From contig NW_021831848.1 of the NCBI RefSeq assembly GCF_006345805.1, forward strand, positions 1 through 43,549: a DNA stretch of 43,549 nucleotides. Direction: 5' to 3'. Made by a program: the position numbers and the translations under genes. Under the pieces are notes generated by a model that saw nothing but the letters and a program-made list of their open reading frames with translations, had not been told where the DNA came from and did not search any database. This document shows positions 385 through 28,659 of the stretch, one piece after another (position 1 is the stretch's first letter; each line of letters opens with the position of its first letter). Source of the DNA: Octopus sinensis (Eukaryota).

Positions 385-428
<44 letters not shown>

Positions 429-634
429 AAATAGAAAGATGAATTTTCTTGTTACAGATTATTCAAAAGTTTAACCGATACCTGGGTAGCAAAAATCACA
501 CCAGAAAAAAGCACGGTTGGAGATAAGACCATTTGGTGTTGCAACCGTGCGTTGGTGCGGATAATTGAAGTTTAATATTATTAGTGAATGGAAGAAATGG
601 AGTTGAACGAAGATTGTACAGAATTCCTTTTATT

Positions 635-714
635 ATTTTACACATGTTTCAAGGCCACAAATTCCAATTCTGATTAAATAAGGGTACCATATTGTGGCTT
701 TCTCTTCAGAAAAA
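635..714 (-). ncRNA. Type-I hammerhead ribozyme (left arm)
   Basis: Minus strand: TTTT-CTGAAGA-GAAAGCCACAA...TTGTGGCCTT-GAAA-CATGTG-TA|AAAT. Confidence 0.75.
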
Positions 715-830
715 ACAGGAATTCCGTTGACAGAACAAAAAAACCGAGGCGCAGCAACGCAATTCGTCCTCGTTCGAATTGCGTTGCTGCGCCTCTTTTT
801 TGTTTTGTTCTGTCAACGGAATTCCTGTTT

Positions 831-912
831 TTTCCTGAAGAGAAGCCACAATATGTGACCCTTTTTAATCAGAATTTGGAAAAATTTGTGGCCTTTGAAA
901 CATGTGTAGAAA
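831..912 (+). ncRNA. Type-I hammerhead ribozyme (right arm)
   Basis: TTTC-CTGAAGA(835-841)-GAAGCCACAA...TTGTGGCCTTT-GAAA(897-900)-CATGTG-TA|GAAA. Stem I UUUC/GAAA. Stem III ACAUGUGU is self-complementary with two G-U pairs. Predicted cut after 908. Confidence 0.8.
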
Positions 913-1066
913 TAATAAAAGGATTCTGTACATCTTCGTTCAACTCATTTCTTCATTCCTAATTATATAAATATATATATATATATTATATATTATATAT
1001 ATATATCTATATATATATATATATATATACAATAATACAAACATAGCACATATACATATATATATA

Positions 1067-2693: not shown

Positions 2694-3832
2694 ATTTGCA
2701 TGCATACATATCTAGTTATGTCTTTGTTTTTTCTATAATCTGAACTATATATATATATATTTACAGATAAAGAATATACACGAATATAGGTATATTTGCC
2801 TGTGTTTCTACCGATCTATTTAAATCTATATCTATCTATGTATCTATCTCTCTATCTATCTATTATACTATCTATGTATGTATGTGTATATATATATGTA
2901 CATACATATCATACATGTATATATATATATATATGTATGTATGTATGTGTGTTTGCATGTGTGTGTATGTGTGTATATATAGATGTGTGTGTGTGGGTGC
3001 GCGCGCGTATATATATATATATACACAATATATGTATATATGGTATAAATATATATATGCATGTATATATGTGTGTGTATATATATATAGATATATATAT
3101 ATATATATATTAGTATATATATATATATATTATTATGTAGGTATGTACATATATGTATGTGTATAAATGCATATGTTTTTATATTGTTTATATTATTATA
3201 TATATAAATATATATACATGTATGTATGCATGTAGGCAGAGAGCGGGAGAAAAATATACGCGCACACACACACACACAAACACACACTCACTCACACACG
3301 CGCATGCATGCACGTACGCGCGCACACACGCAGACTGCCTCTGCCCCTGCAAAAGCCATTAGATCCCTTAGTTCAGGGGCAGCATAGGATTGGTACATAA
3401 CCAATCATGTTTTGCTAAGAACACTTAGTCTCACTTAGGGGTCACAGGGGTATGAAACGGATCATATTGCATTCCATTCTGTACATGTCTGGAGACCCCT
3501 TATTTGGGTACTTTTTTTACGGGTGGGGCGGAAATAGGGTATTAAAGGAGCTCTAAGTGGGGTCTATTAGATCTGGAATGGAAATATTAGAAAGGGAGGG
3601 GTAGGGGCAAAAATAAAACAAGAACAACAACAGAAACAACAATAGGAGCACCGACATTGACAACAATAACAACAGCTATGATAACAATAAACGACAGTAA
3701 CAAGGACAACAGCAAGAACAAGAATGTTATGGCAGACAACGAGTTGTTGATCCAACAAAAGTCTATTTACGGATTTACAGAAAAGGTCAGAATATGGCCT
3801 TTGTATATTTTTCATACATACGTGTGTTTGTG

Positions 3833-4000
<168 letters not shown>

Positions 4001-4001
4001 T

Positions 4002-4590
4002 ATGTTTCTTTATTAGCCACACAGGGCTGCACACAGACGGGACAAATTACAAGGTAGAGCTTTTCTTTTGGGGGATAAAAAAAGGGGGTTTGATTTTCGA
4101 TCAAAAGGGATCGTAAAAGGAAAGAAAGAGGAAAGCAAGAAAAGGGGGGGAATAAAAATAAAAGGATGAAGAAAAAATCAATCAATAGGGATCGTTATCA
4201 CAGAAATGTCAATATAAAGTGTAAAGGGGAAGACAGGTGAGGTTTACCCGTGGAAAGAAAAGCCTACGGAAAAGACCACGGTAACCTCGGTTAATGAAGT
4301 CACAAATAAGTAACTCTCTGTATTAAATTTTTACGGTTCATAGGATCATACTCTAGGTGGCTTCGTCATTCATACGTGCCATCCTTGCTACATTCACCCA
4401 TCTTTTTTAAAAACATTCACTAGACAAAACTTGCCTCTCTACTCTCACTTTCCTTTTCAAGTGATACTTGAAGAAGTTGATGAGAGACTGACCAGAGAGG
4501 AAAGTGTTTGTCTCCAATCCTTTCAGACGCGTCCACCAGATACATTCTTTCGCCATAGCCACAAGGATGATAAAAATAGCTCTTCCTTCC
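4002..4590 (-). mobile_element. Tx1/L1-like non-LTR retrotransposon 3' fragment
   Basis: Minus translation ...AIFIILVAMAKECIWWTRLKGLETNTFLSGQSLINFFKYHLKRKVRVER... resembles the ORF2 C-terminus of Tx1-type elements. 3' UTR ends AATAAAGAAAC directly into (TATC)n. Confidence 0.6.
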
Positions 4591-4830
4591 CAGAAAGGAG
4601 TCAGGTTTAAAAAAGGGGCCTTTTTAAATCTGTCTCCTTTCTGTACACATATTTATTTCCCGCCCAAAACCTAAACAGTTATCTCCCTTACACACATCAA
4701 TAACAATAATAACAACCAATTACCTCCCTTTACTTGTCAACTTGTAAAATCATTCACTCGTGAATTTCATTACAAACAACATGGACCAAATTTCTTAAGA
4801 AAAAATATATATTCATATAAATTAAACATT

Positions 4831-4865
4831 ATATCATGAATAGCGATTGCGAAACCAGTCGATAT
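4831..4865 (+). ncRNA. Type-I hammerhead-like motif with A3-U8 core variant
   Basis: ATATC-ATGAATA-GC gatt GC-GAAA-CCAG-TC|GATAT. Perfect 5-bp stem I, 2-bp stem II, GUC site. Tail runs into (TA)n at about 4921. Confidence 0.6.
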
Positions 4866-4945
4866 ATTAAAAATTATATTATAACTATGTAAGTGTGCGT
4901 ATTTTCCTTTTTTAATTTCTTATATATATATACTTATATATAACT

Positions 4946-10941: not shown

Positions 10942-10967
10942 TTTATTTTAAGCAGCAGAAAATTCAA

Positions 10968-11017
10968 CAAAATCTGTTACTCTGAGTTTCTCGTTGCCGT
11001 TCATCAGACAGTTTTTG
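10968..11017 (-). ncRNA. Type-I hammerhead ribozyme (mirror copy)
   Basis: Exact reverse complement of 11023-11072. Confidence 0.75.
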
Positions 11018-11022
11018 CTTAG

Positions 11023-11072
11023 CAAAAACTGTCTGATGAACGGCAACGAGAAACTCAGAGTAACAGATTTTG
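11023..11072 (+). ncRNA. Type-I hammerhead ribozyme
   Basis: CAAAAACTGT-CTGATGA(11033-39)-aCG gcaa CGa-GAAA-CTCAGAG-TA|ACAGATTTTG. Stem I pairs 9/10, stem III ACUC-A-GAGU, GUA cut after 11062. Stem II is weak (A-A at the first pair). Confidence 0.75.
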
Positions 11073-11195
11073 TTGAATTTTCTGCTGCTTAAAATAAAGC
11101 ATATTACTCTACCACTGGTATTTGAGTTTACTCTTTTTTCCACCTTGTTTCACATTTATGTTTTACTCCGGTATATATATATATATATATATATA

Positions 11196-11515: not shown

Positions 11516-11543
11516 ACACACATATATATATATATATATTATA

Positions 11544-11586
<43 letters not shown>

Positions 11587-11619
11587 TATATATATATATG
11601 TATGTATAATTCATTCACC

Positions 11620-11671
<52 letters not shown>

Positions 11672-11853
11672 GTATATATATTGATGGGTGAATGAATTAT
11701 CCTATGTTTACCGTTAACATGGAAAATTCAATGAACCGTTACCAGGGTAGCAAAGCACGTCAGAAAAACGGTTGAAGCGACCTATCCAAAGGTAGAAAAC
11801 TCTGGGTTAATGAGCAGTAATTTGTGTGTTACAGATGAATAAATAAATAATTA

Positions 11854-11935
11854 CTTTCGACATATGTTTCGAAGACAACATGGTTTTATTCCAAAGGAAT
11901 AAACGGTGTAAGATGCAATCTTCTCATCAGGAAGG
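11854..11935 (-). ncRNA. Type-I hammerhead ribozyme (left arm)
   Basis: Minus: CCTTC-CTGATGA-GAAGAT...GTCTTC-GAAA-CATATG-TC|GAAAG. Confidence 0.85.
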
Positions 11936-12429
11936 AAAGAGTGCCTCTCTCAACAACAAGACATTATAACATTTACGATGGCTGCCTACATGATAAACAG
12001 AACGTTATTAAGTATTAAAAAAAACTGTTAGTAGATTTGACGTCAAAGGCAGATAGAAGGAGGAGAAGGGTTAAAGGGAATTGTAAACACACTTATAGAG
12101 AGATCTTACAAATGCAAACACTGGCAGAAACATACATTTTACTCATATAAGTGATTTCGCCAGTCATTATAGTTTGAACAATTAGTTTAACTTGCATTTC
12201 AATTCAATAGAGGAATTTTTCCTAAGCCTTTGAACATTCTTTTAATCAACGCTTCCCTCCCTCTCTATTTGTTCTCTACCTATTATCCTTTTAACCCTTC
12301 TCCTACTCCTATCTGCCTTTGACGTCAAATCTACTAACGGTTTTTTTTAATACTTAATAACGTTCTGTTTATCATGTAGGCAGCCATCGTAAATGTTATA
12401 ATGTCTTGTTGTTGAGAGAGGCACTCTTT

Positions 12430-12511
12430 CTTTCCTGATGAGAAGATTGCATCTTACACCGTTTATTCCTTTGGAATAAAACCATGTTGTCTTCGAAACA
12501 TATGTCGAAAG
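12430..12511 (+). ncRNA. Type-I hammerhead ribozyme, canonical core
   Basis: CTTTC-CTGATGA(12435-41)-GAAGAT...GTCTTC-GAAA(12495-98)-CATATG-TC|GAAAG. Perfect stem I, palindromic stem III ACAUAUGU, GUC cut after 12506. Confidence 0.9.
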
Positions 12512-12574
12512 TAAAGGAATTTTATTAACATCTTCGTTCAACTCTATTTATTTATTTATTCATCTATCTATCTA

Positions 12575-15500
12575 TATATATATATATATATATCACATGT
12601 ACGCACACATACTTCCACACCTATACACCCACCCACACACCCACACACCCCCACCGGCACACACACACATGCCCGTGCACACACACCAGGGACAATACTC
12701 ATATAGATACGCACACTCCTATAAACACCTAGCTGAGACGCACAGATACACGCACGTAAGCGCACACACGCACACAAGCACGCGCATGTACCTTACACCC
12801 ACACAACTCCAAACCCCCACACGCATATATTCACACACACACATACATACGTACACACACATAATACATACATAGATACATTCATACATACATACATACA
12901 CACACACGCATACGCACATACATACACACATACATACACACACATACACGTATGCACACATACATACATTCACACACATGCATACACACATACATACATA
13001 CACACACATACGTATACATACACACATACAAACACACACACATACCCACACACACACGCACGCACACATACATACACACATATACATACATACATACATA
13101 TACACACGTACACACATACATATATACATTCATACATACATACATACATACATACACACATACATACACACATACACACACAAACATACATACACACACA
13201 TACATACACACATACACATACATACACACATACAAACACATACACACATACACACACATACATATACATACGTACATACACACACATACACACATACACG
13301 AATACACATATACATACACACACACACATACACACATACATAGATACATACATACATACACACACACATACATATACATACATACACACACACATACATA
13401 TACACACATACGTACACACACGCACATACACACATACACGCATGCACACATACATATATACACATACATACACACACACATACATACGCACATACATACA
13501 CACACACACTTACATACATACATACACACACACATACATACACACACATACACACATACATACACACATACATACATAGACACATATATACATACACACA
13601 CACATACATATACATACATACATACAGACACACACATGCACACATACATATGTATACACATACATGCACACACACACACATACATACTATACACACATAC
13701 ACATACACACATACATACATACACACACGCGTACATATACATACATACATACACATACACATACACACACACACTTACACACATACACCCGTAAATACAT
13801 ACATACACACACACTTACATACACACACATACATACATACTTACACACATACACACATACAAGCATACACACACGCATACATATACATACACACACACAT
13901 ACACACATACATACATATATACACACATACATACATACATACATACATACATAGATACATACATGCACAAACATACATATACATACATACATACACACAC
14001 ACATACACACACACATAAACACACACACGCACGCACACATACATACACACATACATACACACACACGTACATACATACATACATACATACATAGACACAC
14101 ACACACTTACACACATCACATACACACACATACATACATACATACATACATACATACACACACATACACACACACATACACACACATGCATACATACATA
14201 CATACATACGCACATACATACACACACATATACACACATACACACACATACATATACACACATATCTATACATACATACATACACACACACATACACACA
14301 TACAGGCATGCACACATACATACATACACACACACACACACATACATACACTACATACATAGATACATACATACATACATACACACACGCGTACATATAC
14401 ATACATACATACACATACACATACACACACACACTTACACACATACACCCGTAAATACATACATACACACACACTTACATACACACACATACATACTTAC
14501 ACACATACACACATACAAACATACACACACGCATACATATACATACACACACACATACACACATACATACATATATACACACATACATACACACATACAT
14601 ACATAGATACATACATGCACAAACATACATATACATACATACACACACACTTACATACACACACATACATACTTACACACATACACACATACAAATATAC
14701 ACACACGCATACATATACATACACACACACATACACACATACATGCATATATACACACATACATACACACATACATACATAGATACATACATGCACAAAC
14801 ATACATATACATACATACATACACACACACATACACACACACATACACACACACACGCACGCACACATACATACATACACACATACATACACACACACGT
14901 ACATACATACATACATACATACATACACACACACACACTTACATACATACACACACATACATACATACATACATACATACATACACACACATACACACAC
15001 ACATACACACACATACATACATACATACGCACATACATGCACACACATATACACACATACACACATACATATACACACATATCTATACATACATACATAC
15101 ATACACACACATACATATACATACATATGTACACACACGCACATACACACATACACGCATGCATAAATACATACATACACACATACGTACATACATACAT
15201 ACATACATGCACACACACACTTACACACATACACACACACATACATACGTACGTACATACATACATACACACACATACATACACACACACATACATACAT
15301 ACATACACACATACACACACACACATACATACATACATACATACACACACGCATACATACACACACACATACACACATACATACATACACACACGCATAC
15401 ATATACATACATGCATACACATACACACACATACACACATACACACATACATCCACACACAATATAAAATATAAAAACACACATATAAGCCCTACATTGT

Positions 15501-28374: not shown

Positions 28375-28520
28375 AGTTGCTGATGAGAATTAAGGTGGTC
28401 TACACCAAAATTCGAACTATCTCTATAAGGCTGTGCTTTCCGTATTATATCCCATTTAAGGCTAAATTCGATCCCGCTTTCCTTCAGTTCTCAAATCTTG
28501 CTAGATAAGGACGTACAACT
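28375..28520 (+). ncRNA. Degenerate type-I hammerhead with long stem-III region
   Basis: AGTTG-CTGATGA(28380-86)-GAATT..GGTG/CACC..AATTC-GAA...~95 nt...GTA|CAACT. Stems I and II pair well, but the 5' side of stem III is damaged. Confidence 0.5.
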
Positions 28521-28659
28521 GGCTTTATGTGTGAGTCTAAAAGATGAAAAATGATTATTGATACGTTTTTTCATATTTATCGAACATCCTATATATATAT
28601 AAAGTTACCAGCCTGAATTATGATTGTACATTTATAAATCATGTATATATATATAATCA

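What the first reader, a model, noticed from the sequence alone, without database searches (positions are those of the whole stretch)
11681..12565. Large inverted-repeat element with two canonical dimer-type hammerheads
This is the best-preserved HHR in the window: CUGAUGA, GAAA, GUC, perfect stem I, and the 8-nt palindrome ACAUAUGU as stem III. It has an unusually long stem II containing an internal hairpin TTTATTCC-tt-tGGAATAAA. It shares tail motifs with 422-962 although the stem II sequences differ (GAAGCCACAA versus GAAGATTGC), so structure is conserved over sequence between two subfamilies. One arm has lost about 30 nt relative to the other.
Basis: partly seen in the sequence, partly recalled or inferred. 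Interest (0 to 1): 0.8.

Follow-up and report, generated by a model that had tools for sequence, protein, structure and literature searches.

The report
Inverted Penelope retrotransposon fragment with hammerheads
This is the broken, head-to-head doubled 3' end of a very common Penelope-like retrotransposon sitting in a TA repeat; each half carries a hammerhead-ribozyme motif predicted to cut only as a pair, and the family differs from its known relatives by an extra-long ribozyme stem and a missing zinc-linker motif.

Summary
The sequence claims are largely right; the framing is not. 11681-12565 is a 5'-truncated, inverted insertion of a Hydra-clade Penelope-like element (PLE) in a (TA)n tract. 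12083-12154 encodes the last 23 residues of the RT/GIY-YIG ORF, and a sister subfamily has a whole 2.86-kb copy with a 775-aa ORF. Both arms carry the pLTR type I hammerhead (C17 at 12506 and 11859). The left arm has a stem I mismatch and a 33-nt deletion. The motif occurs 7,218 times in the genome. Stem II covaries across subfamilies, and loop 3 stays self-complementary (UG 1,490 versus CA 40), which supports a dimer-type ribozyme. The two hammerheads here lie on opposite strands and cannot be each other's partner. Inverted PLE copies with such motifs are published. New in detail: a conserved 51-57-nt stem II region; loss of the Hydra CxCX5C linker while (TA)n insertion persists; one tailed plus one tail-less end in 75 of 79 scored inverted insertions; and excess near-perfect palindromes in two subfamilies. 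These point to two reverse-transcription starts on one RNA (inferred). Cleavage is untested.

The parts
11522..11681 (.). (TA)n microsatellite, left flank and likely target
   Evidence: TRF period 2, 83 copies
11683..11832 (-). 150-nt tail of the left arm, ending at the family's 'long' 3' end; in the whole copy L064 the equivalent end lies about 50 nt before the ORF start codon
   Evidence: alignment to natural copies L006 and L031; L064 long end 2658, ATG 2710
11833..12079 (-). left arm: pLTR part, 5'-truncated at 12079, with a 33-nt deletion between 11851 and 11850
11854..11935 (-). left type I hammerhead (C3 11930, C17 11859); stem I has a C-A mismatch
12079..12081 (.). head-to-head junction of the two 5'-truncated arms, 0-1 unmatched base
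12083..12154 (+). last 23 codons and stop of the PLE RT/GIY-YIG ORF, including the CxH motif
   Evidence: translation; tblastn to P0003 residues 752-775, 75% identity, E 6e-8
12155..12285 (+). 3' untranslated part present in the right arm only (rest of the 206-nt unique spacer)
12286..12514 (+). right arm, part shared with the left arm (229 nt, 97.8%)
12430..12511 (+). right type I hammerhead: 5-bp stem I, CUGAUGA core, 53-nt stem II region, GAAA, 8-nt palindromic stem III, predicted cleavage after C12506
12515..12565 (+). rest of the right arm to the family's 'short' (tail-less) 3' end
   Evidence: same end point in many copies
12566..12594 (.). (TCTA)/(TA)n right flank

Best explanation
The element is a non-coding, 5'-truncated, head-to-head double copy of the 3' end of a Hydra-clade Penelope-like retrotransposon, likely made when the element's protein cut a (TA)n tract and likely started reverse transcription twice, once at each broken end. 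Shown: family identity, the ORF remnant, the two fixed 3' ends (short, about 60 nt past the cleavage site; long, 150 nt further), the (TA)n flanks, covariation of the hammerhead. Inferred: one DNA end was primed at the long site and the other at the short site of the same RNA or source copy; both cDNAs stopped early (12079 and 12081) and were joined head to head. Inferred: the hammerhead is under selection in the source elements, where two same-strand pLTR copies 2.86 kb apart could pair through loop 3 and cleave; most RNA that was reverse transcribed was uncleaved. In this copy the two motifs face opposite ways and a read-through RNA is predicted to form a 229-bp duplex that buries them, so this locus is likely inert as a ribozyme. 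Odds: Hydra-type PLE fragment 0.95; dimer-type cleavage by the family motif 0.7; two starts on one RNA 0.5.
For: ORF remnant and upstream GIY-YIG coding sequence in longer copies. Whole natural copy L064 of a sister subfamily: pLTR-ORF-pLTR+tail, 775 aa, hammerhead spacing 2,863 nt; RIRW, DKT, YRDD, CxxC and CxH motifs, colinear with 13 homologues at 28-39% identity; model pLDDT 84.8, telomerase RT chains fill 8 of the top 10 fold matches. Same inverted layout with arms from under 100 nt to over 3 kb. One long + one short end: 35 of 35 scorable subfamily A insertions (scored by eye), 26 of 30 in D, 14 of 14 in C. Both arms share a variant seen in 2 of 96 distinct copies, namely these two arms. 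Spacer of 25 nt or less in 9 of 26 D and 9 of 14 C pairs against 1.65 and 1.48 expected. 61 of 64 classifiable 3' ends are followed by (TA)n/(TCTA)n against 858 of 8,490 background windows. Stem II covariation. Loop-3 centre UG 1,490 versus CA 40 of 7,218. Of the first 100 of 2,619 D matches, 83 run through the hammerhead and 1 starts exactly at the cleavage site (by eye). Published: inverted 5'-truncated copies, tail at one end, (TA)n targets (PMC8557442); two RT start sites and uncleaved template in vitro (PMC11167929).
Against: No intact ORF of the window's own subfamily was found among the loci held (longest open frames 644-670 aa); the whole copy is about 60% identical in protein. The Hydra CxCX5C linker is absent, and RWK reads RWL. 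End-pairing has exceptions: one clear short/short pair and one doubtful one in D, one long/long pair in B (L116). Palindrome excess is absent in the window's own subfamily (2 of 31, 2.36 expected) and this copy is asymmetric. The active monomer and dimer folds are not the minimum-energy folds (dimer -38.4 versus cofold MFE -44.6 kcal/mol). In subfamily A, 4 of 17 long arms that reach past the short site start within 6 nt of the cleavage site (1 exactly), so some cleaved templates are not excluded. Loop-3 counts are copies, not independent events. No target-site duplication can be read in TA repeats.
Confidence: 0.85

Rival explanations
1. Same element, different route: the first cDNA snaps back on itself, is copied into a hairpin, and the endonuclease resolves the hairpin at the AT-rich short site, which leaves a tail on one arm only.
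For: Near-perfect palindromes in D and C; one-sided tail; PMC8557442 attributes the tail to EN-mediated resolution.
Against: In this copy the longer arm lacks the tail and the shorter arm has it, so neither arm can be a fold-back copy of the other; the same holds for many A copies. PMC11167929 maps RT starts to the two tail borders in another PLE.
Confidence: 0.2
2. An autonomous or retrozyme-like element of fixed structure with a functional hammerhead on each strand (ambisense rolling-circle RNA).
For: Hammerhead motif on both strands; high copy number; animal non-LTR retrozymes derive from PLE pLTRs (bioRxiv 10.64898/2026.07.22.740005).
Against: Junctions differ from copy to copy and arms run into the ORF; no head-to-tail array here; arms pair with each other and bury both motifs; left motif is degraded.
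Confidence: 0.03
3. A fold-back DNA transposon or MITE with long terminal inverted repeats.
For: 229-nt inverted repeat, TA flanks, no long ORF.
Against: The repeat is internal to unequal ends, is the 3' end of an RT-encoding element and shows 5' truncation.
Confidence: 0.01
4. The locus is kept by the host as a hairpin RNA (small-RNA or editing substrate).
For: Predicted 229-bp duplex.
Against: Five arm differences and a deletion fit neutral decay; thousands of similar copies exist; nothing singles this one out.
Confidence: 0.05

Closest known systems
Hydra clade of Penelope-like elements (Craig et al. 2021, PMC8557442), e.g. Penelope-13_HM and Hydra-1_Obim
   Same: Under 3 kb, single RT + C-terminal GIY-YIG ORF, DKT, CxxC/CxH, no CCHH, pLTR hammerhead, (TA)n insertions; Penelope-13_HM has a 5'-truncated inverted copy with the hammerhead on both strands.
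   Different: No CxCX5C linker; stem II region 51-57 nt against at most about 24 nt in the 26 Hydra rows of File S2; tail about 150 nt against 30-40. Hydra-1_Obim keeps the linker and has a different short hammerhead, so it is another family.
Metazoan PLE hammerheads (Cervera and de la Pena 2014, PMC4209133; Rfam RF00163)
   Same: Type I, full core, G10.1-C11.1, short helix I, palindromic helix III, predicted dimer; opposite-strand pairs 100-700 bp apart were noted in Schistosoma.
   Different: Helix II of 10-12 bp plus internal loop and distal hairpin instead of 6-8 bp; scores below the Rfam gathering threshold. A 53-nt stem II region has one precedent in the tables seen, PLE-X1_sMoe, marked as deviating.
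Poseidon of Anolis (PAc; Frangieh et al. 2024, PMC11167929)
   Same: Two fixed 3' ends bracketing a tail, AT-rich targets, uncleaved RNA as the main template.
   Different: Different PLE clade; in PAc the ORF starts inside the hammerhead, here about 330 nt downstream of the core; the tail is longer here.
Non-LTR retrozymes (PMC7229834; bioRxiv 10.64898/2026.07.22.740005)
   Same: Non-coding PLE-derived sequence with a type I hammerhead.
   Different: Retrozymes are head-to-tail tandems with same-strand motifs; this is head-to-head with variable truncation.

Membership tests
Hydra-clade PLE | short unit (<3 kb), single ORF with RT and C-terminal GIY-YIG | tested here: met
   L064: 2,863-nt unit, 775-aa ORF; TERT/RT fold matches; GIY-YIG Pfam hit is weak (E 0.02; 4 of 62 aligned proteins at E<=0.01). 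Whole copy is from a sister subfamily.
Hydra-clade PLE | DKT in place of DKG | tested here: met
   SDKTG in P0003 and L065
Hydra-clade PLE | RWK motif | tested here: inconclusive
   RIRWL; R-W aligned with homologues, K replaced; homologues also vary here
Hydra-clade PLE | no CCHH in EN; CxxC and CxH around conserved E and N | tested here: met
   CxH is also in the window remnant
Hydra-clade PLE | CxCX5C linker before the EN | tested here: not met
   0 of 36 distinct EN readings (33 readable in frame) from subfamilies A, B, C, D, F; present in 61 of 61 homologues whose EN start was found, of 87
Hydra-clade PLE | insertion into (TA)n | tested here: met
   61 of 64 classifiable ends among 70 anchors, background 10%
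Hydra-clade PLE | hammerhead in the pLTR; tandem or inverted layout; tail at one end | tested here: met
Hydra-clade PLE | monophyly with reference Hydra RTs | not tested
   reference proteins were seen only as cut text in the paper's supplement; no tree built. Filed as a Hydra-type variant, not a canonical member, because the linker test failed.
Type I hammerhead (RF00163) | conserved core C3-A9, G12-A14, A15.1-U16.1, H17 and three helices | tested here: met
Type I hammerhead (RF00163) | Rfam gathering score 34 | tested here: not met
   18.8 bits, with 49 positions of long stem II skipped
Dimer-type hammerhead | short, self-complementary helix III kept under change | tested here: met
   UA, CG and UG centres; CA 40 of 7,218; the pattern allowed only these four centres
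Type I hammerhead (RF00163) | self-cleavage after H17 | not testable with these tools
   needs an assay; genomic 5' ends show no clear pile-up
Non-LTR retrozyme | head-to-tail tandem units, each with a same-strand hammerhead | tested here: not met
   head-to-head, no tandem array at the locus

The most novel reading that the evidence does not exclude
This lineage shows how Penelope-like elements make inverted insertions: two reverse transcriptases prime the two ends of one (TA)n break at two obligatory, different sites on a single RNA and often run off the same broken 5' end; (TA)n targeting needs no zinc linker; and the conserved 53-nt stem II is a protein-binding arm that holds the hammerhead uncleaved until after copying.
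Probability: 0.3. Interest if true: 0.65.

Novelty: new variant of a known kind. Interest (0 to 1): 0.4.

Why it matters
The locus itself is an ordinary fossil. The family is useful: how PLEs form inverted copies and one-sided tails, what directs them to microsatellites and what their hammerheads do are named as open in PMC8557442. Thousands of young copies give countable rules (one tailed plus one tail-less end; symmetric truncation), a natural linker-less variant that still lands in (TA)n and so tests the linker-targeting idea, a whole ORF for in vitro work, and a long-stem-II hammerhead class of over 7,000 copies that falls below the Rfam threshold.

Tried and rejected
Rfam on the whole window and on 11690-12570 listed no hammerhead. 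Pfam found nothing for P0003; PDB sequence search gave only chance hits. Sequencing runs: no RNA holder listed; four runs guessed to be RNA were laid as contigs on L017 and cannot show ends, strand or level, so expression and cleavage remain open. Homodimer prediction for P0003 residues 1-480: no verdict. One search was a faulty script (reference held TA repeat and an inverted arm) and was replaced. Within-pair versus between-pair arm divergence (part 3) was spoiled by truncated arms and not used. A fixed 5' end at 12081, suggested, proved to be only this copy's breakpoint. Cleavage-defined 5' ends: weak hint in A, not borne out in D. Assembly artefact rejected: arms differ, ends and flanks differ, pattern recurs genome-wide. 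Earlier scan notes: none. Lunse et al. 2017 and Pyatkov et al. 2004 were not held; they may already describe long-stem variants or the end rule.

Full report
Observation. The window is G000:C8319 of a 2.72-Gb, microsatellite-rich animal genome; a cephalopod host is my inference from these traits and from the only species-named homologue. The inverted repeat is real: 11851-12079 (-) and 12286-12514 (+), 229 nt, five differences. The right hammerhead is as described, with C17 at 12506; Rfam RF00163 matches it weakly, 18.8 bits, E 0.025, only on a short stretch. The left one has a C-A mismatch in stem I and a 33-nt deletion starting 9 nt after C17. The left arm goes on into a 150-nt tail; the right arm stops without it but starts 206 nt further upstream.

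What it is. A search with 12390-12560 gave 2,197 candidates in the genome, 40 scored, at 95-98% identity for full-length matches. In longer copies the sequence upstream of 12081 continues into a GIY-YIG coding region, and 12083-12154 is the last 23 codons of that ORF. A protein search (27,057 candidates, 136 scored) led to L064, a natural whole copy of a sister subfamily: pLTR, 775-aa ORF, pLTR and tail, 2,863 nt from hammerhead to hammerhead. Its protein has 87 homologues at E<=1e-20, aligns over its length with DKT, YRDD, CxxC and CxH and folds like telomerase RT. These are the marks of the Hydra clade in PMC8557442 (section 11 read; passages; supplement parts 2 and 3 and search hits). That paper describes inverted 5'-truncated copies, a tail often at one end only, and lists Penelope-13_HM with the hammerhead on both strands. 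The finding is therefore a truncated inverted PLE insertion. I found no intact ORF of the window's own subfamily among the loci held.

The hammerhead. A core-and-loop pattern matches 7,218 times, reversed control 0. Among 137 distinct motifs in held loci the stem II region is 51-57 nt, 84 of them 53 nt. In 12 representatives of about seven subfamilies, 7 of 12 stem II pairs change on both sides, 88.6% of cells pair, 0 of 500 shuffles reach the covariation score and slid controls fall to 35-53% (related sequences can beat shuffles, and the structure was drawn from these sequences). The distal hairpin is weaker: 85% paired, one two-sided change. Loop 3 has UG in 1,490 and CA in 40 matches, leaving 5,688 UA or CG; UG and CA are equally easy mutations on double-stranded DNA, but only UG pairs in a dimer, so selection on the RNA of source elements is the simplest reading; the counts are copies, not events. 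The active dimer fold costs -19.2 kcal/mol per copy against -13.3 for the monomer, but neither is the minimum. The 26 Hydra rows of File S2 have at most about 24 nt in this region; one spike-moss PLE has 53. PMC4209133 (parts 1-2 of 4) reports low dimer activity for metazoan PLE hammerheads and opposite-strand pairs; PMC6765202 (passages) reviews the dimer model. At this locus the two motifs are on opposite strands and a read-through RNA is predicted to bury 80-81 of 81 motif nucleotides in the arm duplex, so they cannot serve as each other's partner.

How it likely arose. Copies end at two fixed places, short and long. I examined 70 of the 105 exact matches to a 24-mer; after merging three duplicates, 35 of 67 insertions were inverted with both outer ends scorable, and all 35 had one long and one short end (by eye); the other 32 were single-armed, complex or unscorable. 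In subfamily D 26 of 30 fetched pairs were mixed, 3 scored short/short (one continues into the tail by eye), 1 had a cut tail, none long/long; in C 14 of 14. One long/long pair was seen in B. Unpaired D arms were 6 long, 5 short, 1 unclear, so chance would give about half mixed. Both arms of the window copy share a base found in no other of 96 distinct copies, which points to one template or later conversion. In D and C the two arms often break at nearly the same template position (spacer <=25 nt in 9 of 26 and 9 of 14; 1.65 and 1.48 expected), but not in A (2 of 31). PMC11167929 (parts 1-2 of 4) shows for another PLE that both strands are cut at AT-rich sites, that reverse transcription starts at two internal sites bounding the tail and that uncleaved RNA is the main template. 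I infer priming of both break ends, one at each site, on one RNA, followed by head-to-head joining. Fold-back synthesis is the main rival, but cannot explain this copy, whose longer arm lacks the tail. Of the first 100 of 2,619 D matches 17 were truncated within about 55 nt of the anchor and 1 began exactly at the cleavage site (by eye; the pattern's first letter undercounts truncations); in A, 4 of 17 long arms reaching past the short site began at 821-830 on an axis where the cleaved product starts at 825. Cleaved RNA is thus at most a minor template.

Departure from Hydra. The CxCX5C linker is missing in all 36 EN readings from five subfamilies (33 readable in frame) and present in 61 of 61 homologues whose EN start was found, of 87, yet 61 of 64 classifiable ends are followed by (TA)n or (TCTA)n against 10% background. 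PMC8557442 links the linker to (TA)n targeting while noting that Chlamys elements target repeats without it; this family is a counter-example inside the Hydra type.

Novelty. Searches found no paper on this family, on a linker-less Hydra element or on a counted end rule; two key papers were not held and Repbase or Dfam could not be searched, so the family may be catalogued under another name. Also seen: bioRxiv 10.64898/2026.07.22.740005 (part 1 of 5; supplements closed), PMC7229834, PMC6962438 and PMC6431247 (passages). 'Twin priming' as a term is recalled from L1 work. Verdict: real feature, known kind of element, new variant; interest 0.4.

Noticed in passing
window 11609-11627 (+): A 19-nt fragment of the same family's long end lies in the same (TA)n tract facing the element; it makes the 11613-11693 hairpin and looks like a second, tiny insertion.
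   Followed up: partly
window 422-962: Inverted insertion of subfamily C: long end on the left arm, short end on the right, near-perfect palindrome with an 8-nt spacer; 1,544 candidates in the genome.
   Followed up: yes
window 16258 and 20158 (+): Two near-identical minimal hammerhead motifs (4-bp stem II, almost no helix III) of another repeat family.
   Followed up: no
window 28407-28595 (-): Remnant of a different GIY-YIG endonuclease, 37-40% identical to Hydra-type proteins, with one stop; next to a CUGAUGA on the + strand near 28383.
   Followed up: partly
window 10967-11073: Perfect 107-nt palindrome containing CUGAUGA on both strands; may be the junction of another inverted PLE.
   Followed up: no
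L075 about 1350-1435: A further hammerhead-like motif with a very long stem II from an unrelated family, upstream of the family copy.
   Followed up: no
L061, L062, L064, L116: Subfamily B, with near-identical long ORFs, has a CCGAAGA core (U4C) and GUA cleavage triplet, and in some copies G-U at the base of stem II.
   Followed up: partly
L031 about 2970-4870: A PIF1-like helicase (Helitron-like, label recalled) segment is inserted inside a family copy.
   Followed up: no
L058, L065, L068, L114: Subfamily A proteins carry an expanding Asn-rich tract where other Hydra proteins have the cysteine linker.
   Followed up: partly
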